This document shows positions 2,632-17,097 of a DNA stretch of 64,000 nt, in pieces. The position numbers and the translations under genes are program-made. This DNA is from a virus (taxonomy: Duplodnaviria > Heunggongvirae > Uroviricota > Caudoviricetes). Under the pieces are notes generated by a model. The model was not told the origin of the DNA. It saw nothing but the letters and a program-made list of their open reading frames with translations, and searched no databases. The DNA lies in IMG/VR virus record IMGVR_UViG_2939142107_000001, positions 1 to 64,000 of that record; one strand, given 5' to 3'. Positions within the stretch are counted from its first letter, which is position 1, and every line of letters starts with the position of its first letter.

Positions 2632-3633
2632 ATGTCAAAGAAAAACAGACCAACAATTGGGCGAACCCTTAATCCTTCAATATTAAGCGGATTTGATAGT
2701 TCTTCATCCTCTGGCGATCGAGTCGAGCAGGTATTCAAGTTATCAACTGGTCGCCAGGCCACATTTATTGAAGAGGTAATACCTCCGAACCAGGTAGAAA
2801 GCGATACCTTTGTTGATCAGCATAACAACGGGCGTGACCAGGCATCTCTTACGCCAAAATCATTAAAAAGTATCCGAAGCACTATTAAGCATCAGCAATT
2901 TTACCCTGCAATAGGTGTTAGACGGGCTACAGGGAAAATTGAAATTTTGGATGGTTCCCGGCGTCGAGCTTCTGCCATCTTAGAGAACGTAGGGTTGCGG
3001 GTTTTAGTCACGGACCAGGAGATCAACGTTCAGGAAGCGCAAAATTTAGCGAAAGACGTTCAGACAGCATTGCAGCACAGCATTCGAGAAATAGGTCTGC
3101 GTTTGATGCGAATGAAAAATGATGGGATGAGTCAGAAGGATATTGCAGCCAAGGAAGGGCTGTCTCAGGCGAAAGTCACGCGTGCTCTCCAGGCAGCGAG
3201 TGCTCCGGAAGAATTAGTCGCCCTTTTCCCTGTGCAGTCGGAATTAACCTTTTCGGACTACAAAACGCTTTGTGCTGTTGGCGACGAAATGGGGAACAAG
3301 AATTTAGAGTTTGATCAGCTTATTCAAAACATATCCCCGGAAATAAACGACATCTTATCCATTGAAGAAATGGCCGAAGATGAAGTTAAAAATAAAATCC
3401 TGCGCTTGATAACAAAGGAAGCCTCACTACTCACGGATAAAGGTTCTAAAGATAAGTCCGTAGTTACTGAATTATGGAAATTTGAGGACAAGGATCGCTT
3501 TGCAAGGAAGCGCGTGAAAGGCCGTGCATTTTCTTATGAGTTTAATCGACTTTCAAAAGAGCTACAGGAAGAACTCGACAGGATGATTGGGCATATCCTT
3601 AGAAAGAGCCTCGATAAAAAGCCGAAGCCTTAA
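2632..3633 (+). CDS. parB: Partition protein ParB, centromere-binding (333 aa).
   Basis: 333 aa, immediately downstream of parA and upstream of the parS-like site. It has a ParB/Spo0J-like central region (GSRRRAS). Confidence 0.9.
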   Translation: MSKKNRPTIGRTLNPSILSGFDSSSSSGDRVEQVFKLSTGRQATFIEEVIPPNQVESDTFVDQHNNGRDQASLTPKSLKSIRSTIKHQQFYPAIGVRRATGKIEILDGSRRRASAILENVGLRVLVTDQEINVQEAQNLAKDVQTALQHSIREIGLRLMRMKNDGMSQKDIAAKEGLSQAKVTRALQAASAPEELVALFPVQSELTFSDYKTLCAVGDEMGNKNLEFDQLIQNISPEINDILSIEEMAEDEVKNKILRLITKEASLLTDKGSKDKSVVTELWKFEDKDRFARKRVKGRAFSYEFNRLSKELQEELDRMIGHILRKSLDKKPKP

Positions 3634-7224: not shown

Positions 7225-8040
7225 ATGAGCAAAAACTTTTTTCAATCCGGGGCATTTTTGGGGAATGGACTGTCCCGTTTCGCTTTGAACTCTGATCCTG
7301 TGCAGCTGATGGAGTCTGCCCGAGCAAGCGCCGAACCGCCAACAGATCCGGTTATTAATAATAATCCGGAACCGGCGGCACAGACTAACGATAACGTTCC
7401 ATCTGCCCCGGCTCCAGAGCAAATCCTGGAAGGGAAAGACGGTAAAGAATGGACCGTCGAACAGGCGCACCAGATGATTCTGGAAGCTGCAAATCGAAGT
7501 GCTATGCAGAATGCGTTGAGTGATGCGGCCGACGCCGTTTTCTCCTGGGCTGATAGCGGTGATCTGACTTTCGACTCCCTTGATGGTTTCGTTCAGGCTA
7601 TCGCTGGTATCTCTGATGACGACGACTCCGAAGTTACAGAAGAACAGGACGATGCCTATAACGAAGCATGGGCAAATGTTGCTGACTTCCTCGCAGCATG
7701 CGGTGTAGATGATGACCTGATCGAAGCACTGGCTGACGATGAAGACGACGACGCAGCTGCTGATGTTGGTGCCTCTATCGCTGGTTTAGATAGCGACGAC
7801 CGTGATGAACTGGAAGCGGCGTTTGTTGTTGCTGGCACTTCTGATGAAATGCTGACTGAAGCATTTAAGAAGGTTGTTCGTAACGGTGAGATCAAACTCA
7901 TCCGTAAACGCCTGCGGAAAAAACGTCTGACTGCGGCTCAAAAATCGGCGCTGAAAAAAGCGCGTCGAAAAGCCCAGACCGGCGCGGCAAAACTTGCCCG
8001 CAAAAAGTCAATGAAACTGCGCCGTAAGCGCCTTGGCTAA
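7225..8040 (+). CDS. Strongly acidic protein (runs of D/E) with a poly-basic K/R C-terminal tail of about 45 aa. It sits at the P1 gene 21 position.
   Basis: 271-aa ORF with an RBS (GGGAATACAATG context). Its composition is DDDDSEV, DDEDDDAAAD, then KRLRKKRLTAAQKSALKKARRKAQ. Confidence 0.5.
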   Translation: MSKNFFQSGAFLGNGLSRFALNSDPVQLMESARASAEPPTDPVINNNPEPAAQTNDNVPSAPAPEQILEGKDGKEWTVEQAHQMILEAANRSAMQNALSDAADAVFSWADSGDLTFDSLDGFVQAIAGISDDDDSEVTEEQDDAYNEAWANVADFLAACGVDDDLIEALADDEDDDAAADVGASIAGLDSDDRDELEAAFVVAGTSDEMLTEAFKKVVRNGEIKLIRKRLRKKRLTAAQKSALKKARRKAQTGAAKLARKKSMKLRRKRLG

Positions 8041-8075
8041 AGGAGGAGGCCGGAGAACTCCGGCCTTTAACTTGA

Positions 8076-8657
8076 ATGGCACCTATACCTTATGGGGTTT
8101 ACAGCCAGGCTGATGGTGTATCGCCATTTCTGAAAGTTACTTTAACGAACTCTCAGTACCAGGTTACCGGATATATCAGCCAGGGGGCAGCAATGAACAT
8201 GGCCCAGAATTGGGAAGCGCCGTTTACCGGTATGTCCATGGGGTCTGTTGCTGGTGCTTTCAGTGGTTTTGCGCAGGTTGGTACTGAAACAACGTCGGTG
8301 GCCCGTTGGAACAGCTTAATGGTTTGGGAGGGGGGAACACCGCCGACTTTCACGCTGCCAGTAACTTTCATCGCTTTGTTTGACCCATTCACGGAGGTTT
8401 CAGGAGCTATCGCCGCATTGTCAGCGATGATTAGCCCGGAACTTAAAGATGCCAGTATTGGTGGTCGAATCCCGGAGCGTGTGACGCTAAACATTGGTCG
8501 CCGGATCAACATCATTGATGTCGCTATCCAGGACATAAGTTTCGATCTCGATGCACCCAGGGACAGCAATGGGCATTTCCTGAAAAACACCGTCAACCTC
8601 CAGTTGACCGGTTCTTCGATATATAACAGCTCCGATATTGTTCGGGCGTTCCAGTAA
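8076..8657 (+). CDS. Structural/morphogenesis protein (193 aa). By synteny it matches the pmgG/bplB region.
   Basis: ORF in the late operon, preceded by the hairpin ggccggagaactccggcc at 8048-8065. Confidence 0.5.
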   Translation: MAPIPYGVYSQADGVSPFLKVTLTNSQYQVTGYISQGAAMNMAQNWEAPFTGMSMGSVAGAFSGFAQVGTETTSVARWNSLMVWEGGTPPTFTLPVTFIALFDPFTEVSGAIAALSAMISPELKDASIGGRIPERVTLNIGRRINIIDVAIQDISFDLDAPRDSNGHFLKNTVNLQLTGSSIYNSSDIVRAFQ

Positions 8658-8668
8658 AAGGATTTTAT

Positions 8669-9178
8669 ATGGGGCACAATAACACTAAGGGAAACCGTAA
8701 ATTTATTAAGGGCCGCTATACTGCCAACGCGGCCAAAGGCGAACGACTGGTATCTTCTGAATTCCAGCTCACTTTTGCAGGCCATGAAGATATCAGCGTA
8801 CTGGTTCGCACGTCGCAAATTCCTGAAATGACCCGCGAGGATGTGGAGGACTATGGTCCGAATGGTGTGAAGTTCAACCAGCACGGTCCAATTCGAAACT
8901 CTGGGGAAATCCAGGTCCAGTGCGTGGAGACTATCGAAGGCGATATTCTTCAGTTCATTAAAGATCGCATTGCGGCGAAGGACTATGTTGATATCACGAT
9001 GGCTGCGACCCCTGAATCCAAATCTTCCGGGGTTAACGCTGTGACAAAAGCTGCTACAACAATTGAAATGTTGGACTGCAAAATCTACAGTGATGCAATC
9101 GACTTTAGTACCGAAGATGTGACTGCCGCTGTGCGCCCGTCACTTCGTATCGTTTACAACTGGATTGAGTGGGATTAA
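8669..9178 (+). CDS. Structural/morphogenesis protein (169 aa).
   Basis: Tightly spaced after the previous ORF, and followed by a strong intrinsic terminator. Confidence 0.5.
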   Translation: MGHNNTKGNRKFIKGRYTANAAKGERLVSSEFQLTFAGHEDISVLVRTSQIPEMTREDVEDYGPNGVKFNQHGPIRNSGEIQVQCVETIEGDILQFIKDRIAAKDYVDITMAATPESKSSGVNAVTKAATTIEMLDCKIYSDAIDFSTEDVTAAVRPSLRIVYNWIEWD

Positions 9179-9197
9179 GAGTCATCCCTTGTATTTT

Positions 9198-9222
9198 AAA
9201 GCTCCTTCGGGAGCTTTTTTGT
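9198..9222 (+). terminator. Rho-independent terminator aaagctccttcgggagcttttttgtg.
   Basis: 8-bp stem with a ttcg tetraloop, followed by a T6 run. Confidence 0.65.
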
Positions 9223-9261
9223 GCTTAAATTATGCCGGTATAGATAGATTTTGAGCATGTT

Positions 9262-9558
9262 ATGGAAATTGATTTTTCATACTCTCCTGAGACGATAGAA
9301 AGAAGATTCGAAATAATTGGATGCATAACTATTTCAGATGAGCATTATTGGGTTCTCTATGATGCCAATACATGGTTATGTGCCTTAGCAGAATGTCAGC
9401 CATCGTTATGTGTAGGGGAGGGGGCTTTTCGACATAAGGTGCTGGCTACACTTGAAGTGAACACGTTACGATATTGGTGTGTAGAAATACTTAGTGATAA
9501 CAAAGAATTGCATTTATTATTGCTGAATAAGTGTGCTTCTCTGCGCAGAAAAGCATGA
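9262..9558 (+). CDS. Hypothetical 98-aa protein at the start of the AT-rich inserted cassette.
   Basis: AT-rich codon usage unlike the backbone. A hairpin plus T-run follows at about 9676-9722. Confidence 0.4.
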   Translation: MEIDFSYSPETIERRFEIIGCITISDEHYWVLYDANTWLCALAECQPSLCVGEGAFRHKVLATLEVNTLRYWCVEILSDNKELHLLLLNKCASLRRKA

Positions 9559-9724
9559 GAAAACCCAACCGCTCTCCAGGAATTATCAGAAGAATATATG
9601 CGGAAAGTTATAGCTAGCTATTGAAAAGCTAAAGTAGATCGGTTAGATTTGCCTTACTCATCTACCATGTGTAGAAAGAGCGATCGAACCCGATACATAG
9701 CAATATGTGTCGGGTTCAGCTTTT

Positions 9725-10204
9725 TTATGTCCCAAGTGCTCTTTTTCTGCTTTGTTTGAGTGTTCTGATTTTACTGTCATAGGTTACAACATAGGCTGTT
9801 TTGAGAAGCCAATAGTCTCTACGTGCGGATAGCACAACAACGTAGTTTTCACACTCATTCCAGATTACCCACTCTTCAGTTGGTCCTCGTCTTTCAGACC
9901 AACATGATATATCGCAATGGTTATAATTCCTTATCATATGCGCGATCCAGCGAATTCGCTTGCACCGTTCAAGATCGGGTATACGTTCTTCTTCTTTTTT
10001 TCCCTCTGATACTAAATGCCAAAATCCGAACTCTTTCCCATCATATTCCGGTGAATAACGTAATCGAACAGGGAGACCCTTAAACGTTATATTAGAGATT
10101 AAAATGTCTTCTCTGACAACATCATATACATCGTCTATATACTCTTGCCAACTTCCATTGAAGTACAATAAATCTGGCATTTGAAGCATCAGCGAGCCTC
10201 CCAC
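9725..10204 (-). CDS. Hypothetical 159-aa protein. It is the small partner of the DUF3800-like gene, and its start overlaps the end of that gene by 16 nt.
   Basis: AT-rich, and translationally overlapping with the upstream gene. No recognisable motif. Confidence 0.55.
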   Translation of the reverse strand: MGGSLMLQMPDLLYFNGSWQEYIDDVYDVVREDILISNITFKGLPVRLRYSPEYDGKEFGFWHLVSEGKKEEERIPDLERCKRIRWIAHMIRNYNHCDISCWSERRGPTEEWVIWNECENYVVVLSARRDYWLLKTAYVVTYDSKIRTLKQSRKRALGT

Positions 10205-10893
10205 ACGAAAATATTAAATTTACTTTCTGTTGGAAGAGTGCTTTTTAGTAACTCCCTGTTTGTATGTGATTTTATCCTGTTTATGACTTGGATTTTTCCC
10301 GCGTTGCTATTCATTCCTCGATGAACGTAGCCTAACGCACCAATGAAAAGATCCGTTAGCTGCAATTGTTGCACTTCATGAGATCGTATATGTTGAATTC
10401 TGTTTATCGACTCATGATTGTAATCATAGCGATCATTGTGAAGAACCCCTCTTAATTTCTCAATTTTTTCAATACCTAAAGTATCTTTTATATCTAGGTA
10501 GATATTGTATGTGTTGTTACTTTCTATTATGTTTTTTAAGACATAAAAAAACATCTTATAATAGAAAGTATTATGATCTTGATGGAATCGAGCATGGTCC
10601 AGTTGCTCTTTATCAGGAACAACAACACCTCTAAAGCGCAATGCTGGGTTGCTGAAGAAGTAATCTACGACATCTAAGTAAAATTCAACTTTGGACGCAG
10701 ATACTTTAGTCCACTTGATTTCGAAATCAGGTTTTAGATTGTGTTTTAATTTTAATTCCTTGATGTCTCTAGCAATTTTTTTTGTGATAGAGCCAGGACA
10801 CCAAAGTGCACCCAATACCATGACTTTATTATGATCATTTAGTAGGTGACAGGATTCATCGCAGAATACATTAAATGTTCTTCGGTTCAACAT
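10189..10893 (-). CDS. DUF3800-like protein (234 aa). It has an N-terminal FCDES motif and a C-terminal QLTDLFIGAL motif.
   Basis: The D-E-S motif near the N-terminus and the Q-L-x-D-L motif near the C-terminus match my recollection of Pfam DUF3800. The gene is AT-rich and absent from the canonical P1 order. Confidence 0.55.
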   Translation of the reverse strand: MLNRRTFNVFCDESCHLLNDHNKVMVLGALWCPGSITKKIARDIKELKLKHNLKPDFEIKWTKVSASKVEFYLDVVDYFFSNPALRFRGVVVPDKEQLDHARFHQDHNTFYYKMFFYVLKNIIESNNTYNIYLDIKDTLGIEKIEKLRGVLHNDRYDYNHESINRIQHIRSHEVQQLQLTDLFIGALGYVHRGMNSNAGKIQVINRIKSHTNRELLKSTLPTESKFNIFVWEAR

Positions 10894-11061
10894 GTTAACT
10901 CCACTTATTGTTAGGTAGAATTGTCCGTTAGTTGTTTATTAATTGCAATAAAGGGACGTCCAGATTTGACAACTATGTCCTCTTACCAGGACACCTATGA
11001 GTTTGCCTCATGGCAAACTAGAGGTGTTGAAAGTATGCATGGTTATAATTAGAGCAATTCA

Positions 11062-11907
11062 TTACCCTCTGAATCCTGCCGGTATACCCCATTGTTCGTT
11101 ATCTTTATTTTTGGCTAAAACCGCATTAAGAGCTTCGTTTACCGTCATGCAATGCGGCAGATTATCGAAGTTTGATATCCCGCCAATATCAGGAGAACGC
11201 TTGTTCTTCAGGAAAGCATATTTCCGCGAAGCCGCCTCTACTTTCTGCTTGAACTCATGTTTTTGAGCGCGTTTTTTGGATAACCGCAGATTGTCTGCCT
11301 TTGCTTTTGCCTCAGCGATCCAGGAAGTCAAATTTTTGAGCCTGGTCGTTCCGGCACCGCCGGAAACTGATCTTTTTGTTTTTTTAATTTGTGACTTCTT
11401 ATTCTTTATTGCCACGTCATCCTGACAGGGGGAGGGGGTATCATTTTGACATGGGGGTGTGGATAAAAAATTAAATAAAGCCAATGTCTTAGCGAGAACA
11501 GCTTTAACCTTGGTTGCCGCTGAAGAGATCTTTAATTTGCTTTCAATCAGCGCATTTTTGGCTTGTTGTGCGAAGGCCAAAAAGGATGGTGTAAACCGGT
11601 ACAGGTTAGCGCGACGTTCATGGTGATCGCCGATAACAATCTCTACAGACAGAATTCCTTTGTTTACAGCTTCACGGAATGCACGAACGACGGTTGATTG
11701 GCTATAACCAGTTTCTGCCGCGATCAGGCGGTGAGGCTTGTGAATGAAGTATTCACTGGTTGTTGCCGCTAGATTTGCACATTGCGACAGGATATGCCCG
11801 GCGCTACGGGATAGACCGGAGTGTGTTACAAAGCAGGCCAATTCATAGCCAGAAAAAGTAAAATCGCTCATCGTTATACAGCTCAGGAAAGTGACTTTAG
11901 CCAGCAT
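11062..11907 (-). CDS. repL: RepL-like lytic-replicon initiator (281 aa), downstream of kilA in the C1-controlled operon. Alternative start MSDFTF at 11871.
   Basis: Synteny Op53-kilA-repL. It has a winged-helix region STVVRAFREAVNKGILS. Confidence 0.55.
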   Translation of the reverse strand: MLAKVTFLSCITMSDFTFSGYELACFVTHSGLSRSAGHILSQCANLAATTSEYFIHKPHRLIAAETGYSQSTVVRAFREAVNKGILSVEIVIGDHHERRANLYRFTPSFLAFAQQAKNALIESKLKISSAATKVKAVLAKTLALFNFLSTPPCQNDTPSPCQDDVAIKNKKSQIKKTKRSVSGGAGTTRLKNLTSWIAEAKAKADNLRLSKKRAQKHEFKQKVEAASRKYAFLKNKRSPDIGGISNFDNLPHCMTVNEALNAVLAKNKDNEQWGIPAGFRG

Positions 11908-11936
11908 TACAATGCTGGTGGTTCTTACTACGTCTG

Positions 11937-12737
11937 TTAGCGCGTTGCCGCGACAGGTACCAGCACACCAGCATCAAGCAATCGCTTCATCAGCCACTGC
12001 TGACCTTTGCCGGTTATACGAGTCGTGAAAGAAATCCTGCTTCCATTGCTTGTATCGATCACGGTTTCTTTAAGGGTGAAATACCCACGGGATATGTATT
12101 CTTGTTTGGGGACGTTCCTGCGTTCACCGGTTGCGATCAGAATTCCGTTATCACGCAACCAGGTGAAGAGATAGTTTTGGCCCAGGCCGAGCACTTTGGC
12201 ATAGTTGCCGATTAGAACCCCGCTAGCGGTAGCAACGCGTTCGGCGAATTCGACTTTAGGTGCATCCATAAGCATTTTTTGCTCCAGCCGTTGCTTTTGC
12301 TCTGCCAGGTCGGCAGCCAAACGGAGAGCTTCAGGGAGACTCTGCGGAATAGCTGGTTGTAATCTTCCGGCTCGATAGTCGATAAATGTCTGGTTTACCT
12401 TCAGCCGAAATGCGGGAGAAATCCAGCCTGCGTACTCCACAGCGAGCAATTCATGGGCAAAAGTGCCGCCGCCACGGCCTTCGAACGAAACTATGCAATT
12501 CTGCATAGTTTCTTTTTCAAGCTCTTCGATGAGCTGTTTGGCTGACAGCGTTCTTAGCCATTGAGCTGGCGCTTTATGGGCACCGAGTCCGCTCGCTCTG
12601 TGTAGAGCATTAAGGTTGTAACGGCCAGCGCAGTCGGTCGTAATTTCAACACCACAAATAACAGGCAGAGTGGTTGAAGGATCGACATTTTGATGAAGGT
12701 TTGATATATTCATATCCGCATTGAATGTTTGTTGCAT
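11937..12737 (-). CDS. kilA: KilA (266 aa): N-terminal KilA-N domain plus C-terminal antirepressor (ANT/KilAC-like) domain.
   Basis: Length equals P1 KilA. It has a C1 operator upstream. Its C-terminal domain is paralogous to Ant1 at 12901-13935. Confidence 0.7.
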   Translation of the reverse strand: MQQTFNADMNISNLHQNVDPSTTLPVICGVEITTDCAGRYNLNALHRASGLGAHKAPAQWLRTLSAKQLIEELEKETMQNCIVSFEGRGGGTFAHELLAVEYAGWISPAFRLKVNQTFIDYRAGRLQPAIPQSLPEALRLAADLAEQKQRLEQKMLMDAPKVEFAERVATASGVLIGNYAKVLGLGQNYLFTWLRDNGILIATGERRNVPKQEYISRGYFTLKETVIDTSNGSRISFTTRITGKGQQWLMKRLLDAGVLVPVAATR

Positions 12738-12806
12738 TTTTTCTCCAAATTTGCATCAACCTTCAATCACCAGCTCGAAATGGTGATTCTTTGCACTTAG
12801 AAAACG

Positions 12807-12824
12807 AAATTTATTAGAGCAAAT
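12807..12824. promoter_or_regulatory. C1 operator (Op53-like) aaatttattagagcaaat upstream of kilA-repL.
   Basis: It matches the reverse complement of the C1 consensus ATTGCTCTAATAAATTT with one mismatch. Confidence 0.6.
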
Positions 12825-12900
12825 TTTTCTGACTCGATCCAGATCGGGTTGGACGATCTGCTCAGAAACCTGCCAGTTAGCTGGCAGGTTTTTTCTTTTG

Positions 12901-13935
12901 TTAACCTATTGCTACTGGTTTTAACAAACCAGCATCAAGTAGCTTGCGAGTTAACCACTGCTGGCCTTTACCCGTTAATTGGGGCGTCAGCCGTATCTGG
13001 TAGCCATTTTCATCATCCAGCACCACTTCTTTCACCGTGAAATACCCGGCGTTGATGTACTGTTGGCGCGGTACGTTTTTGCGCGCTCCAAAAGCCATGA
13101 GAATGCCGTTCTGGCGCAACCATGAGAAAAGGGCGTTTTGCTTAAGTCCAACGACCTTTGCAAAGTTCCCGATCAGGATTCCATTGGCCACTGATACCCG
13201 GTCGGCAAAATCGACTTTAGGGGCTGCGGCCACCAGCTGTTGTTCCAACTGCATTTTCTGTTCTGCTAACTCGGCAGCCAGGCGTAGGGCTTCTGGTAAT
13301 GTCTGGGGGATCGATGGGGTAGGGGAGTTTGCCTGCTGTAACTCTTCCAGTTTGTCGATCAGCGAACGGCGGACCGCTTTTGACTCGCGCGCGGCAACTC
13401 GCAGGGCTTGTTTGTAGGTCATGGTTATAATATCTATTTCTGCGCCGTTTTTTTGACCTACGAAAATTTCGTAGGTTTCTCCTTCAAGCTCATCCTTAAC
13501 TCTGGCAATGAAATCATTGTTGCGAACTGGTTTTTCGCTACATAATTTCCGTGCCTCATTGACCATCTTCAACAATGTTTGGCTGTCGATTGTGTCTCCG
13601 GTGTTTGGGATGACATTCAGGGCTGGTGCTGGCGTAGCTGAAGCAACAGGTGCTGGTTTTTCAACATTTAAATTATTACCGGTCATTCTATGTGCCTCCT
13701 TTCTCATTTCTGCTGCCACTGTTGCGTAACGTAGACGTCCTTGTTCAATCAAATAATCCCTGATCTCGGCTATCAGTAGCCTGTTGATCACAGCCTTATC
13801 TGTTCGGGTATAAAAACGTCTGGTTATCATGAAATAGTTAGCAATTGCGCCGGGGATCTCCCGTGTCGGCATACAGGCAGTATGCAAGGCGATCGCTTCG
13901 ACTATTTCATTACGGGTGACGAGAGGTGTTTTCAT
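12901..13935 (-). CDS. ant1: Antirepressor Ant1-like (344 aa), the effector of the immI region.
   Basis: The C-terminal region is about 65 percent identical to the KilA C-terminus. It lies downstream of the icd-like ORF and the c4-like region, matching the P1 immI order c4-icd-ant. Confidence 0.65.
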   Translation of the reverse strand: MKTPLVTRNEIVEAIALHTACMPTREIPGAIANYFMITRRFYTRTDKAVINRLLIAEIRDYLIEQGRLRYATVAAEMRKEAHRMTGNNLNVEKPAPVASATPAPALNVIPNTGDTIDSQTLLKMVNEARKLCSEKPVRNNDFIARVKDELEGETYEIFVGQKNGAEIDIITMTYKQALRVAARESKAVRRSLIDKLEELQQANSPTPSIPQTLPEALRLAAELAEQKMQLEQQLVAAAPKVDFADRVSVANGILIGNFAKVVGLKQNALFSWLRQNGILMAFGARKNVPRQQYINAGYFTVKEVVLDDENGYQIRLTPQLTGKGQQWLTRKLLDAGLLKPVAIG

Positions 13936-14159: not shown

Positions 14160-14440
14160 GGCCTCGTAAGTTGATAAACAACCTGCGACCCGCTGCTAAA
14201 CAGGTGGCAGGACGTGACGGGGTTAGCAGACTGGCACTTACGAAACCAGCAGGCCGAAGCCTCCCCATCACGCCCCACCATAATTCGGGCGTAACGTGGT
14301 TTACGGACACAAAAATACCGCAATATCGGAAATCTGCGGTTGTCCGCGTAAGTATTCAGGCTGCTAAACCCGGTCGCAGAATTTGCTACGACGGCGGAAC
14401 TATAAGCCTGAACGATTAAAAGGTCAATATGATGCGAAAA
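14160..14440 (-). ncRNA. c4: Candidate c4-like antisense RNA and its target repeats in the leader of icd-ant. Boundaries are approximate.
   Basis: Non-coding on the minus strand between Op51 and icd. It contains repeated GCTGCTAAAC / GGTTAGCAG-type complementary elements at 14187-14197, 14213-14222 and 14358-14369. Confidence 0.35.
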
Positions 14441-14465
14441 GATAGCATTCGCGACTTAAAAATAC

Positions 14466-14483
14466 AAATTTATTAGAGCAGAT
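14466..14483. promoter_or_regulatory. C1 operator (Op51-like) aaatttattagagcagat at the head of immI.
   Basis: Consensus match, located upstream of the c4/icd/ant transcription unit. Confidence 0.55.
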
Positions 14484-14763
14484 TAGTGTCGTGCAATAGA
14501 TATATTATTTGTGATGAAAAATAATGCAGAGGGATATTGTAACTTTAAGATGGATATCAATAGTCGATACATAAATTAAGTTAGCAATAAACTATTAACT
14601 TAAGAAATAATGCAGATGGTGAACTTGTCTCTGACTTTTCAGCTATACACAATAAGTTAGGGATAGCTTATAAAAAGTTGATTAATTGATATAAGTCAAT
14701 GGGAGTATTCTTGTTTACTTTTCGTTCTCGTGGTAACTTCTCGCCGGTTTTTGTTTTTCTGGG

Positions 14764-15285
14764 ATGATTCTTATGTCTAAAAAGTATACTTTATGCGCTC
14801 TTGTTGTATCTGCAATTCTTCTTTCTGGGTGTCAATCTAGCGGTGCTGATTATGCTGCCGATGTTTATGATACCGCTCAATTGAATTCGAAGCAGGAAAC
14901 AAAGACAGTCAATATTATCTCTGTGCTTCCAGCTAAAGTGAAAGTTGATAATAAAGCTAATAAAGAAGCGGCACAGACATTTGGTGCGGTACTGGGAGCT
15001 GTTGCTGGGGGCGTTGCCGGTTATAATGTTAAAGGCACATCGACACTGGGTGCTGTAGCTGGCGGTACTGGTGGTGCGGCTCTTGGTGCAGCGGCTGGTT
15101 CTTTGGTTAGTGATAAAACAATTGTTGAAGGTGTTTCACTGACTTATAAAGAAGGAACTAAGGTGTTCACTTCAACTCAAGTTGGTAAAGCATGCCAGTT
15201 TACAACGGGGCTTGCTGTGCTTATTTCAACTAAAGATAATGAAACTCGAATTCAGCCAAATGCTACTTGTCCAGAAAAGAAATAA
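14764..15285 (+). CDS. Lipoprotein with a lipobox LLSGC and a glycine-zipper region (GAVLGAVAGGVAGY...). It sits at the sim position and is a candidate superinfection-exclusion protein.
   Basis: Signal peptide plus Cys. AT-rich. Probable start at MSKKYTL, position 14773. Confidence 0.6.
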   Translation: MILMSKKYTLCALVVSAILLSGCQSSGADYAADVYDTAQLNSKQETKTVNIISVLPAKVKVDNKANKEAAQTFGAVLGAVAGGVAGYNVKGTSTLGAVAGGTGGAALGAAAGSLVSDKTIVEGVSLTYKEGTKVFTSTQVGKACQFTTGLAVLISTKDNETRIQPNATCPEKK

Positions 15286-15288
15286 TTT

Positions 15289-15828
15289 ATGAATAAAATT
15301 ATTTTATTTCTAATCTTTTCTACGTTTAGTGTAGGCACTGCCTTGGCTAACTCGTTGCAAAGTCAAATTGCTGCTATTGCTCAAGCGGAAAATGAAGGGC
15401 GAGCTAAAGAGCAGCAAGCTGAGGATGCCAGAAAAGAACTTATTCGCCAACAAGCACAAGCTGAACGTATTAGAAGAGAAAAAGCAGCATCTGCCGCTGC
15501 TGCACGCGAAAAACAGCGTGTTGCTGCAGAAAATGAACGTAGAGCGAAACGAGAAGCCGAGCTAGCAAATGACAAGAAGCGAGATCAAGCTTATGAGGAT
15601 GAGCTTCGCAAGCTGCAACTCGAAAGCATGAAACTCGAACTGCAAGCAAAAGCGGCTCGTGTCCAGCGAGAAAACGATTTTATAGAGCAGGAGTTGAAGG
15701 AGAGAGCAGCTAAGACAGATGTAATTCAGTCTGAGGCTGATGCAAATAGAAATATTTCTACAGGAAGTAAAGATTTACTGCAAAGCGAAGGAAAAGCTAG
15801 AGAGAAGAAAGCTAGCAGTTGGTGGTAG
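15289..15828 (+). CDS. Secreted protein with a signal peptide and charged coiled coil (179 aa).
   Basis: N-terminus MNKIILFLIFSTFSVGTALA, followed by a long E/K/R/A-rich helix. AT-rich. Confidence 0.6.
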   Translation: MNKIILFLIFSTFSVGTALANSLQSQIAAIAQAENEGRAKEQQAEDARKELIRQQAQAERIRREKAASAAAAREKQRVAAENERRAKREAELANDKKRDQAYEDELRKLQLESMKLELQAKAARVQRENDFIEQELKERAAKTDVIQSEADANRNISTGSKDLLQSEGKAREKKASSWW

Positions 15829-15884
15829 TAATCACTACGATTGCGAGCATACTGTCACAAATGACAACTCGTAGAATCTGTTAA

Positions 15885-16475
<591 letters not shown>

Positions 16476-16485
16476 GGGAGCTGAT

Positions 16486-17097
16486 ATGGGGCTTAATGTT
16501 GCTTCAGTAAAGTCTTATGTATCTTCGGCATTAACGACGACATTATTTGGCTCCGGCGTTGGTGAGCGGGAAGTTGGTAAGCTGACGTCAATCATCATGA
16601 ACAAAATGCTGTTCGCGCAAGGATGGCAGTTCTCTGTCGAAGTTGATGGTCTGGAGGGGGCAGACTTCTTTGCTAAAGACATTACCTACCACGATTACAG
16701 CATCGAATATGAAACGATTAAAATCGGCGGAGGGAATATCCTTCAGCCAACGGAGCGTTCGCCTGGGCAGATAACAATGATGGTCAGGGATACCGTTGAT
16801 GGCCTCGTTTTGGACTGGTTTAAGACGGCAAAAAGTCGGGTGATCAATCCGGACGGTACCGGGAATATACCGTCTAAATATTTGCTCAATGTGCGTATTT
16901 ATCGGTTGCTGTCCTCCGGTTTAACCAAACTGGAAAATGAGATGACGGTATTCCCGGTCACTACCGGCGATGTCACCTATGCGCGAGATCAGGTTACTGA
17001 ATTTAAGTCATTCCCAATGACCTTCGCATTGCACAGCACGTTTAACCAATCCTCAAGTTCTTTGGCTTCCCTTCTGGGCTTTAGCTTTTCTCTTTGA
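16486..17097 (+). CDS. Tail tube protein, Tub-like by synteny (203 aa).
   Basis: Order pmgC-tub-pmgB-sit as in P1. Confidence 0.45.
   Translation: MGLNVASVKSYVSSALTTTLFGSGVGEREVGKLTSIIMNKMLFAQGWQFSVEVDGLEGADFFAKDITYHDYSIEYETIKIGGGNILQPTERSPGQITMMVRDTVDGLVLDWFKTAKSRVINPDGTGNIPSKYLLNVRIYRLLSSGLTKLENEMTVFPVTTGDVTYARDQVTEFKSFPMTFALHSTFNQSSSSLASLLGFSFSL

What the first reader, a model, noticed from the sequence alone, without database searches (positions are those of the whole stretch)
9230..10990. Inserted AT-rich cassette with a DUF3800-like protein and overlapping partner between the structural genes and the lytic replicon
Between the terminator of the head/sheath operon (9198-9222) and repL there are three AT-rich genes absent from the canonical P1 order, where rlfA/rlfB/pmgF lie. 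They are:
- a 98-aa ORF on the plus strand with its own hairpin terminator;
- on the minus strand, a 234-aa protein with an N-terminal FCDES and a C-terminal QLTDLFIGAL motif (DUF3800-like);
- a 159-aa partner whose start overlaps the end of the DUF3800-like gene by 16 nt.

DUF3800 proteins are uncharacterised and recur in phage and defence-island contexts. A tight two-gene operon in a variable region of a temperate phage is a typical signature of a prophage-encoded anti-phage or superinfection-exclusion module.
Basis: partly seen in the sequence, partly recalled or inferred. Interest (0 to 1): 0.7.

Follow-up and report, generated by a model that had tools for sequence, protein, structure and literature searches.

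The report
P1 rlfAB module with hidden sRNA
The "inserted cassette" is phage P1's own pmgF-rlfB-rlfA segment: an optional, mobile two-gene candidate anti-phage module (an RNase H-like DUF3800 protein plus a small partner) that also carries an unannotated small RNA gene conserved across more than ten bacterial phyla.

Summary
The ORFs, AT-richness, terminator and motifs are real. The claim that they are absent from canonical P1 is wrong: they ARE pmgF, rlfB and rlfA (97% identical to P1, 98% to P7). RlfA is DUF3800 with an RNase HII-like predicted fold. RlfA and RlfB hit PADLOC's untested candidate system PDC-M04 (E 8e-96, 1e-52). The pair is non-essential for P1, sits in a known variable low-GC slot, and occurs in only ~14% of P1-like plasmids. 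In other bacteria it is typically embedded in type I restriction-modification operons or at prophage/island edges, never next to repL. A is followed by B in every one of about 154 loci with enough sequence downstream to check.

New here: the "hairpin terminator" between pmgF and rlfB belongs to a ~69-nt small RNA gene (window 9657-9725, + strand) convergent with rlfB. It has its own sigma-70 promoter, a sequence-invariant 5' hairpin and a terminator. It accompanies the pair in 75 of 78 genomic loci, shows strong covariation, matches no Rfam 15 family, and also occurs free-standing in diverse phages, in phi3T beside a DUF3800-VIII RNA. Function is untested; a three-part defence or abortive-infection module is the best reading.

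The parts
9198..9222 (+). Intrinsic terminator after bplB; left edge of the variable slot
   Evidence: Hairpin plus T-run found. Homology to P1-likes that lack the cassette ends at 9220.
9221..11047 (.). Variable low-GC cargo slot between bplB and repL. Here it holds pmgF, the sRNA gene, rlfB and rlfA.
   Evidence: Breakpoints at 9220/11048 against MH422554, RCS47 and 673R5, and at 11095 against SJ46. GC is 0.33-0.41. Other P1-likes carry Hok/Gef, IS605 or Ail/Lom there. The literature lists it as variable region 5 (PMC9603915).
9262..9558 (+). pmgF (98 aa), function unknown; not part of the mobile rlfAB unit
   Evidence: Identical position and annotation in P1. Matches phrog_7349. Its N-terminal 65 aa are 45% identical to the 198-210-aa proteins in the same slot of RCS47 and SJ46. 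Non-essential (PMC10695390).
9621..9649 (+). Sigma-70-type promoter of the small RNA (-35 TTGAAA at 9621-9626, -10 TAGATT at 9644-9649)
   Evidence: Promoter scan. The same position in 77 loci from more than ten phyla gives an unaligned consensus TTGACt-N17-TAtAtT that ends about 8 nt before the RNA.
9657..9725 (+). Conserved ~69-nt small RNA gene convergent with rlfB. It has a 5' hairpin CUCAUCUAC-CAUGU-GUAGAAAGAG (9657-9681), a terminator hairpin (9686-9717) and a U-tract (9720-9725) that ends at the rlfB stop codon.
   Evidence: - Ten enterobacterial copies have 86% mean column identity, although their B proteins are only 49-76% identical.
- Covariance model R1 finds it at the 3' end of B in 75 of 78 genomic loci and 17 of 19 others.
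- 92% of cells are paired, against 32-46% in slid controls; 16 of 18 pairs show compensatory changes.
- The strand is set by A.C 71 versus G.U 4, plus the promoter and U-tract.
- MFE is -29.7 kcal/mol, z = -6.7.
- No Rfam 15 match.
- Not annotated in P1.
9725..10189 (-). rlfB (154 aa from the ATG; the ORF list gives 159 aa from GTG at 10204): the fast-evolving partner, PDC-M04B
   Evidence: - PADLOC PDLC04355, E 1.1e-52; annotated rlfB in P1.
- 1775 clusters at 50% identity, almost all single-domain proteins of 150-190 aa.
- AF2 model pLDDT 92.5.
10189..10893 (-). rlfA (234 aa): DUF3800 protein with an RNase HII-like fold, PDC-M04A
   Evidence: - Pfam PF12686; PADLOC PDLC04353, E 7.8e-96.
- AF2 model pLDDT 88.9, pTM 0.88.
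- Invariant D12, E13, D134, D137, Q178 and D181 in 28 sequences from several phyla.
10894..11047 (-). Cargo-specific leader upstream of rlfA, containing the PrlfA promoter predicted in the P1 annotation (about 10920-10948 by coordinate transfer)
   Evidence: P1 annotation. Fold z = -2.6. Found only with P1-like elements, in 120 of 5426 complete E. coli genomes. It is not shared with non-P1 copies of the module, whose DNA similarity stops at 10903.
11043..11059 (-). C1 repressor operator Orlf (Op55), directly after the repL stop; right edge of the slot
   Evidence: P1 and P7 annotation. The core ATTGCTCTAAT is conserved in all P1-likes, and divergence begins right after it.

Best explanation
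Window 9221-11047 is the pmgF-rlfB-rlfA segment of phage P1/P7. It is an optional, low-GC cargo slot between the baseplate gene bplB and the lytic replicon gene repL.

Within it, 9621-10903 is a self-contained mobile module of three parts:
1. rlfA, a DUF3800 protein with an RNase HII-like fold and an intact acidic motif set.
2. rlfB, translationally coupled to rlfA: a small, faster-evolving protein, possibly of the RelE/colicin-D RNase fold.
3. A previously unannotated ~69-nt small RNA gene, transcribed convergently from its own promoter and terminating at the rlfB stop codon.

The protein pair is PADLOC's candidate system PDC-M04.

Shown: identity, architecture, conservation, linkage, genomic contexts and RNA structure.

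Inferred: the module most likely works as an anti-phage or anti-mobile-element defence of the abortive-infection / toxin-antitoxin type. In this reading, one or both predicted nucleases are held in check or directed by the small RNA and released on infection. In P1 it would serve as accessory cargo that protects or stabilises the lysogen, not as a replication function. Which component senses, what is cleaved, and whether the RNA binds RlfA or RlfB are all unknown.

The confidence given covers the whole statement. Identity and architecture alone are about 0.95; the defence function is about 0.5.
For: - Identity with P1 and P7 genes.
- DUF3800 match and PDC-M04A/B matches.
- RlfA has an RNase HII/H2A/HIII/PIWI-like model with invariant acidic residues. 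This agrees with published predictions for DUF3800 (PMC7736814, PMC10910872).
- B follows A in 79 of 80 genomic and 75 of 79 viral loci; the exceptions lie at contig ends. The stop/start overlap is ATGA or TGATG in most.
- A is always more conserved than B: median 50% versus 34% identity, 133 of 133 pairs.
- Contexts of relatives: hsdM-hsdS-A-B-hsdR; RT and pAgo neighbours; prophage edge next to an integrase; an integrative mobilisable element.
- 34 of 80 loci have type I R-M genes on the same strand. HsdS and HsdR are the commonest immediate neighbours, alongside other R-M types, GmrSD, KwaB, AIPR and MazF.
- No repL in any of the 13 relatives' loci whose genes were listed with Pfam families.
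- Non-essential for P1 lytic growth (PMC10695390). Replaced in other P1-likes (PMC6906374). Present in about 14% of P1-like plasmids.
- sRNA: conservation, covariation, promoter, terminator and strand. It is kept even where B is truncated.
- DUF3800 genes are already known to associate with eleven different structured RNAs (PMC5737381). In phi3T the new RNA lies 58 nt upstream, on the same strand, of an Rfam DUF3800-VIII RNA.
Against: - No experiment shows defence. PDC systems are explicitly untested.
- In P1 the operon lies co-oriented behind repL and a C1 operator, and it is induced with early lytic genes in one transcriptome (bioRxiv 10.64898/2025.12.28.696737). That fits a lytic-cycle role at least as well as lysogen-expressed defence.
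- The sRNA also occurs free-standing in many phages with no RlfA-like gene in the fetched stretch, so it has a life outside this module.
- No base-pairing target for the sRNA in the rlfAB mRNA was found.
- No RNA expression data are available.
Confidence: 0.55

Rival explanations
1. Lytic-replication accessory, the original P1 reading ('replication-linked function'). RlfA would be an RNase H-type enzyme that processes R-loops or RNA primers at oriL inside repL, with RlfB as its helper.
For: Adjacent to and co-oriented with repL, downstream of the C1-controlled kilA-repL operon and of operator Orlf. RNase H-like fold. Co-induced with repL early in infection.
Against: Knock-down of rlfA or rlfB does not impair P1 plaque formation. 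About 86% of P1-like plasmids with the same backbone lack the genes, and those phages have the same repL. Hundreds of homologous pairs lie in R-M operons, prophages and islands, with no repL in any of the 13 loci whose genes were listed with Pfam families. The name was given by position only.
Confidence: 0.08
2. A selfish addiction (toxin-antitoxin) module with no defence role. RlfB (RelE-like) or RlfA would be a toxin, and the convergent sRNA or the other protein the antidote. It would stabilise whatever operon or element carries it.
For: Translational coupling with the larger gene first. Weak RelE/colicin-D-like fold of B. A convergent sRNA ending at the 3' end of the downstream gene resembles type I TA layouts. 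B is truncated in about four loci where A and the sRNA stay intact. Embedding in R-M operons would fit stabilisation.
Against: The sRNA overlaps B by only about 0-25 nt, and its conserved part is not antisense to any coding sequence. No complementarity to the mRNA beyond chance. A is a highly conserved enzyme with invariant catalytic-type residues, unlike a typical antitoxin. P1 already has phd-doc. TA and abortive-infection defence are not mutually exclusive.
Confidence: 0.15
3. A phage counter-defence or host-takeover function used in the lytic cycle, for example destroying RNA-DNA hybrids or guide RNAs of host systems. The sRNA would be a phage regulatory RNA.
For: Location behind a C1 operator among early genes. 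The sRNA is common as a free-standing gene in phage genomes, including large phages with tRNA arrays.
Against: Most A-B-sRNA modules lie in bacterial chromosomes, co-oriented inside R-M operons and defence islands. The family was picked up independently by 'guilt by embedding'.
Confidence: 0.1
4. The conserved non-coding element is only a bidirectional transcription terminator shared by pmgF and rlfB, not an RNA gene.
For: Hairpin 9686-9717 with a T-run on the plus strand scores as an intrinsic terminator. It lies between convergent genes.
Against: A second hairpin, with an invariant loop and bulge and no U-tract, is conserved in sequence across more than ten phyla. A sigma-70 promoter sits at a fixed distance in 77 loci. 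The element is more conserved than the adjacent coding DNA. It occurs free-standing in phages. pmgF is absent from all non-P1 copies.
Confidence: 0.04

Closest known systems
Phage P1 rlfA / rlfB / pmgF (P7 rapA / rapB / upf52.1)
   Same: Same genes: 97-98% DNA identity, same order, same flanking bplB terminator, C1 operator Orlf and repL.
   Different: Nothing structural. The published names imply a replication-linked or morphogenetic role that rests on position only. The small RNA gene between pmgF and rlfB is not annotated in P1.
PADLOC candidate system PDC-M04 (Payne et al. 2024, 'guilt by embedding')
   Same: Both proteins match the A and B profiles strongly (E 7.8e-96 and 1.1e-52). Relatives are embedded in type I R-M operons, which is how the candidates were derived.
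   Different: PDC-M04 is defined as two proteins and is untested. Here a third, non-coding component is found to be almost universally linked. The P1 copy is not embedded in an R-M system: it sits in a phage-plasmid cargo slot.
DUF3800-associated RNA motifs I-XI (Weinberg et al. 2017; Rfam, e.g. RF02969, RF03075, RF02968)
   Same: A structured RNA encoded next to a DUF3800 gene, with a Rho-independent terminator at its 3' end and no obvious cis-regulatory position. In phi3T it lies in tandem with a DUF3800-VIII RNA.
   Different: No Rfam 15 model matches it even at E<=1. It is linked to one DUF3800 subfamily that also has a protein partner. It also occurs without any nearby RlfA-like gene in phages. 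I could not check it against motifs that may be missing from Rfam, because the paper's supplements are not held.
PrrC / RloC anticodon nucleases embedded in type I R-M operons
   Same: The same genomic habit: a latent nuclease gene inserted between hsdS and hsdR (my knowledge of EcoprrI-prrC; layout seen here). RlfB's nearest structural neighbours include the colicin D tRNase.
   Different: No sequence or fold relationship to the PrrC ABC-ATPase/nuclease. There are two proteins plus an RNA instead of one protein. Any functional coupling to the R-M enzyme is untested.
Type 2 RNase H (RNase HII/H2A)
   Different: Only 7-13% identity, no Pfam RNase HII match, extra invariant Cys/His (CDESCH, C32) and QxxD motifs. 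Substrate unknown.

Membership tests
Pfam DUF3800 (PF12686) | Profile match above the curated gathering score | tested here: met
   54.2 bits against a cut-off of 21, E 3.5e-14, residues 8-189.
Pfam DUF3800 (PF12686) | N-terminal DE motif and C-terminal QxxD motif | tested here: met
   D12-E13 and Q178-x-x-D181 are invariant in 28 diverse homologues. The motif definition is as quoted in PMC7736814.
Pfam DUF3800 (PF12686) | RNase H-like fold (as predicted in the literature) | tested here: met
PADLOC PDC-M04 | Protein A and protein B profile matches | tested here: met
   PDLC04353 E 7.8e-96; PDLC04355 E 1.1e-52, plus 11 further M04B models.
PADLOC PDC-M04 | The two genes adjacent on one strand | tested here: met
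   TGATG overlap in the window. Adjacent in 79 of 80 and 75 of 79 relatives.
PADLOC PDC-M04 | Embedded in, or next to, known defence systems | tested here: inconclusive
   Met for relatives: 34 of 80 loci have type I R-M genes on the same strand, and HsdS/HsdR are the commonest neighbours. Not met for the P1 copy itself, which lies between bplB and repL.
PADLOC PDC-M04 | Anti-phage activity | not testable with these tools
   The source paper calls the PDC systems untested. No paper in the library reports a test.
Type 2 RNase H (RNase HII/H2) | Sequence-family membership and the DEDD catalytic tetrad in equivalent positions | tested here: inconclusive
   The fold matches. D12, E13, D134 and D181 lie at the end of strand 1, the end of strand 127-133 and in helix 175-191. 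There is no sequence-profile match, and I could not superpose coordinates.
RelE / colicin D / BECR-fold RNase toxins (for RlfB) | Significant fold match and conserved catalytic residues | tested here: inconclusive
Rfam DUF3800-associated RNA motifs | Match to a curated covariance model | tested here: not met
   No hit at E<=1 in window 8900-11400 or in L018/L006/L037, and none at gathering score in L004/L010/L176/L177. The library does contain DUF3800-I, -VIII and -IX.
Rfam DUF3800-associated RNA motifs | Structured RNA with covariation, encoded beside a DUF3800 gene, often with a 3' terminator | tested here: met
   Covariation; linkage in 75 of 78 loci; terminator and promoter.
Type I toxin-antitoxin (antisense sRNA overlapping the toxin's 3' end) | Extended complementarity between the sRNA and the toxin mRNA | tested here: not met
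   The overlap with rlfB is limited to the U-tract and stem base. The conserved 5' hairpin lies outside any ORF. The duplex energy is no better than that of shuffled sequences.

The most novel reading that the evidence does not exclude
The ~69-nt RNA is the working partner of the DUF3800 nuclease: an inhibitor (antitoxin), or a scaffold or guide bound by the RNase H/PIWI-like RlfA or by RlfB. The free-standing copies carried by many phages (SPbeta/phi3T-like, Vibrio, Streptococcus and large tRNA-rich phages), in phi3T in tandem with a DUF3800-VIII RNA, would then be RNA decoys that disarm DUF3800-based defences, by analogy with RNA anti-CRISPRs. That would explain the long-standing puzzle of why many unrelated structured RNAs cluster with DUF3800 genes. 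It would also add an RNA-mimicry layer to the arms race outside CRISPR.
Probability: 0.15. Interest if true: 0.85.

Novelty: new variant of a known kind. Interest (0 to 1): 0.55.

Why it matters
The genes themselves are long known in P1, and the pair is already listed as an untested defence candidate, so the finding as first written is largely ordinary. What adds value is the third component. A deeply conserved, independently transcribed small RNA travels with the RlfA-RlfB pair across more than ten phyla, sits unannotated in one of the best-studied phages, and recurs on its own in many other phages.

DUF3800 proteins turn up with retrons, with Cas12 and Cas13 loci, and with eleven orphan RNA motifs, yet no function is known. 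P1 in E. coli offers an immediately tractable system of three small parts, non-essential and easy to delete or clone. It could be used to find out what a DUF3800 nuclease does, what its RNA is for, and whether phage-borne copies of that RNA are countermeasures.

Tried and rejected
- Rfam scans of the window region and of eight related loci, looking for a known RNA family at the element: none found.
- PDB sequence searches with profiles of RlfA and RlfB: nothing significant. NCBIfam: no hits.
- The labels 'replication protein' (phrog_16230) and 'oxidoreductase' (NCBI names for RlfB) have no support from any domain or fold result. I treat them as annotation by position or by error.
- I first read the conserved element as a 3' UTR structure on the rlfB strand and built model R1 in that orientation. 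The G.U versus A.C counts, the promoter profile and the U-tract overturned that strand assignment.
- Hypothesis that the invariant loop CAUGU pairs with the rlfA start region (ACAUG in P1): rejected. 'AC' before the ATG is not enriched in 75 loci.
- Hypothesis of antisense targeting of the rlfAB mRNA: the RNAduplex energy is no better than for 175 of 200 shuffles.
- Search for a conserved protein partner of the free-standing phage copies: none, and no DUF3800 among 93 flanking ORFs.
- The rlfA leader (10894-11047) as a candidate ncRNA: only modestly structured (z = -2.6) and confined to P1-likes.
- PADLOC and Pfam on the alternative cargo of the same slot in other P1-likes: no defence hits, only Hok/Gef and Ail/Lom.
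- The supplements of Weinberg et al. 2017 are not held, so a direct comparison with motif drawings was impossible.
Full report
**1. The observation**

The three ORFs exist at the stated coordinates:
- 9262-9558 (+), 98 aa;
- 9725-10204 (-), 159 aa from a GTG;
- 10189-10893 (-), 234 aa.

GC drops from about 0.50 to 0.33-0.41 across roughly 9050-11150. Terminator-like hairpins lie at 9198-9217 and 9686-9717. The 234-aa protein carries FCDES and QLTDLFIGAL and matches Pfam DUF3800 well above threshold (E 3.5e-14). The partner's conserved start is the ATG at 10189. It overlaps the upstream stop as TGATG and gives a 154-aa protein; the '16-nt overlap' comes from taking the longest ORF.

**2. What it is in P1 terms**

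Window 8000-13000 aligns end to end with canonical P1 (NC_005856, 97.4%) and with P7 (98.4%). In those records the three ORFs are annotated pmgF, rlfB and rlfA (P7: upf52.1, rapB, rapA). They lie between the bplB terminator and the C1 operator Orlf/Op55 that follows the repL stop.

The locus is nonetheless variable.
- Fifteen of 23 P1-like phage records cover only 63% of the query.
- Their homology stops at window 9220 and resumes at 11048, or at 11095 in SJ46.
- The slot then holds other cargo: a Hok/Gef toxin, an IS605 transposase plus a 198-aa protein, or an Ail/Lom outer-membrane protein.
- The right junction falls immediately after the operator core ATTGCTCTAAT.
- In PLSDB, the pmgG-bplB backbone occurs in 709 plasmids but rlfAB in only 100.

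Published comparisons already list 'rlfA, rlfB, pmgF' as one of eight variable, low-GC regions (PMC9603915) and describe its replacement (PMC6906374). A genome-wide CRISPRi screen scored all three genes non-essential (PMC10695390).

pmgF is separate from the rlfAB unit. Its first 65 residues are 45% identical to the ~200-aa proteins at the same position in RCS47 and SJ46. DNA similarity to non-P1 elements covers only 9656-10903.

**3. The two proteins**

Both hit PADLOC's candidate system PDC-M04 (A: E 7.8e-96; B: E 1.1e-52). NCBIfam has nothing. The PHROG label 'replication protein' for RlfB, and NCBI's 'oxidoreductase', have no support.

**4. Linkage and context**

- A B homologue directly follows A on the same strand in 79 of 80 species-level genomic loci from more than ten phyla, and in 75 of 79 viral contigs. 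All exceptions are at contig ends.
- The B start overlaps the A stop (ATGA in 57 loci, TGATG-type in 33).
- A is more conserved than B in 133 of 133 pairs, with a median of 50% versus 34% identity to P1.
- Individual neighbourhoods: hsdM-hsdS-A-B-hsdR in Methylomonas; hsdMS-RT-A-B-hsdR-x-pAgo on an integrative element in Algoriphagus; integrase-A-B at a prophage edge in Enterobacter; an integrative mobilisable element in E. coli; a lambdoid prophage moron in Serratia; islands next to tmRNA or fis elsewhere.
- No repL appears in any of the 13 loci whose genes were listed with Pfam families.
- Systematically, 34 of 80 loci have type I R-M genes on the same strand. Among immediate neighbours, HsdS (16 of 70 upstream) and HsdR (8-10 of 72 downstream) are the commonest families. 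Other R-M types, GmrSD, KwaB, AIPR, MazF and integrases also occur.

This is the 'embedding' signal from which PADLOC's PDC list was derived. The source paper states that the 145 PDC systems are untested (bioRxiv 10.1101/2024.01.29.577857). I found no paper that tests PDC-M04, or that gives any biochemistry for DUF3800.

**5. The third component**

Aligning the DNA after the rlfB stop showed about 70 nt that are more conserved than the coding sequence. Ten enterobacterial copies have 86% mean column identity, while their B proteins are 49-76% identical.

A covariance model built from these ten copies found a full-length match at the 3' end of B in 75 of 78 genomic loci and in 17 of 19 others. 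There were only two off-target hits.

On the 77-sequence alignment:
- 92% of cells are paired, against 32-46% when partners are slid;
- 16 of 18 pairs show compensatory double changes;
- 173 double-change cells, against 35 expected (0 of 500 shuffles reach this). The alignment was fitted to the model, which favours the structure, but the slid controls share that bias.

The element has two parts. One is a hairpin with a covarying stem. The other is a hairpin whose stem, 5-nt loop and bulge are nearly invariant in sequence across phyla: in rlfB sense CUCyUUCUAC-ACAUG-GUAGAUGAG.

Three observations put the functional strand opposite to rlfAB:
1. Leaving out one terminal pair, A.C/C.A cells outnumber G.U cells by 71 to 4.
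2. The conserved A-run becomes a U-tract after the first hairpin.
3. The unaligned 60 nt upstream in 77 loci give a TTGACt-N17-TAtAtT consensus ending about 8 nt before the structure.

In the window this gives the following layout:
- promoter 9621-9649, also found by the blind scan;
- RNA about 9657-9725 (+);
- 5' hairpin 9657-9681;
- terminator hairpin 9686-9717;
- U-tract 9720-9725, abutting the rlfB stop codon at 9725-9727.

The RNA folds at -29.7 kcal/mol, z = -6.7. No Rfam 15 family matches it at E<=1 in four separate searches, although Rfam holds DUF3800-I, -VIII and -IX. P1's detailed annotation has no feature there. P1-likes that lack rlfAB also lack the core. Loci with a truncated B keep it.

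**6. The RNA outside the module**

The 24-nt core has 116 exact matches in IMG/VR. Of the 80 loci returned, only 15-16 have A-B next to it; in two of these the RNA is inverted relative to the usual arrangement. About 58-65 have no RlfA-like ORF in the fetched stretch, yet the full two-hairpin element is present.

In those loci:
- The element is free-standing, and flanking ORFs mostly share its true strand (69 of 97).
- The neighbours have no common family and include no DUF3800.
- Only 6 of 44 have the sigma-70 promoter.
- Some lie in tRNA arrays of very large contigs, or near ROOL RNAs.

Cultured phages with the core include Bacillus phi3T/SPbeta-like phages, Vibrio phages 1.084.O and 1.121.O, Streptococcus Javan423/425, a Geobacillus phage and two Mammaliicoccus phages. 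In all of them it lies in unannotated intergenic DNA. In phi3T it lies in the yonK-phi3T_55 gap, 58 nt upstream, on the same strand, of an Rfam DUF3800-VIII RNA that scores above the gathering threshold. The same pairing occurs in viral locus L209.

Limits: I looked only at the 1-14 kb fetched around each hit, so a DUF3800 gene elsewhere in those genomes is not excluded.

**7. Mechanism**

*Shown:* a mobile three-part module: an RNase H-fold DUF3800 protein, a coupled small protein and a convergent sRNA. It has a strong association with R-M and defence loci, it is dispensable for P1, and its presence among P1-likes is patchy.

*Inferred:* it most likely acts as an anti-phage or anti-MGE abortive-infection / TA-like system in which the RNA restrains or directs a nuclease.

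*Against a lysogen-expressed defence:* its position behind a C1 operator, and its co-induction with early lytic genes in a P1vir infection.

I found no base-pairing target for the sRNA in the operon. The replication-linked reading is poorly supported.

**8. Novelty and verdict**

As written, the finding describes known P1 genes in a known variable region that match a known, untested defence candidate.

The conserved sRNA gene appears undescribed as far as Rfam 15 and the searchable literature show. Its free-standing copies in phages turn an ordinary annotation into a testable lead on the unexplained DUF3800-RNA association. I could not compare it with the original motif files of Weinberg et al., so prior description under another name is not excluded.

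Noticed in passing
L003 1796-1951; L012 1651-3755; L013 1615-3253; L014 1729-3074 (same slot as window 9221-11047): Other P1-like phages fill the bplB-repL slot with different cargo: a Hok/Gef toxin (MH422554); an IS605 transposase plus a 198-aa unknown protein (RCS47); an Ail/Lom outer-membrane protein mis-annotated as 'RepL' plus two unknowns (SJ46); and unknowns (673R5). None hits PADLOC.
   Followed up: partly
window 9725-10189 (-) and its homologues P0122, P0127, P0128, P0132, P0136: RlfB homologues are named 'oxidoreductase' by NCBI and 'replication protein' by PHROG 16230. No domain, profile or fold result supports either name.
   Followed up: partly
L296 (phage phi3T KY030782) 3340-3536; L209 3639-3899: In SPbeta-like phages the new RNA and an Rfam DUF3800-VIII RNA lie in tandem on one strand about 60-120 nt apart, in a ~700-nt gap with no annotated gene (between yonK and phi3T_55 in phi3T) and no RlfA-like ORF in the fetched stretch of L209; the phi3T stretch was not scanned for DUF3800.
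   Followed up: partly
L205, L207, L212, L217 (viral contigs of 48-336 kb): Free-standing copies of the RNA lie within or beside long tRNA gene arrays. In L205 and L212 they are a few kb from ROOL RNAs. Some copies are followed directly by tRNA-like sequence, which suggests co-transcription and processing.
   Followed up: no
L180 8026-8104 and L213 7487-7565: In two viral contigs the RNA lies downstream of an A-B pair but in the opposite orientation to the usual convergent arrangement. This fits an independent gene, not a 3' UTR element.
   Followed up: no
L006/L007 10699-10872 (Methylomonas), L028, L070, L089: The B gene is truncated (57-80 aa) while A and the small RNA stay intact. This suggests that A plus the RNA is tolerated without B.
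   Followed up: partly
window 10189-10893 (-), RlfA residues C11, C15, H16, C32: An invariant or nearly invariant Cys/His cluster (the CDESCH motif plus C32) sits next to the predicted catalytic Asp-Glu. It could be a metal site that canonical RNase HII lacks.
   Followed up: no
window 10894-11047 (-): The 154-nt leader between the C1 operator and rlfA has two hairpins (fold z = -2.6). It is found only with P1-like elements (120 of 5426 complete E. coli genomes) and not with other copies of the module.
   Followed up: partly
window 14300-14750: A second sharp low-GC stretch (0.31-0.36) lies just beyond the ant/icd region, ahead of four plus-strand ORFs of 173-203 aa (14764-17097).
   Followed up: no
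L010 14464-14569: The E. coli integrative mobilisable element that carries an A-B-sRNA module also has a traJ-II RNA (Rfam, 84 bits), a relaxase and a NACHT-domain giant gene.
   Followed up: no
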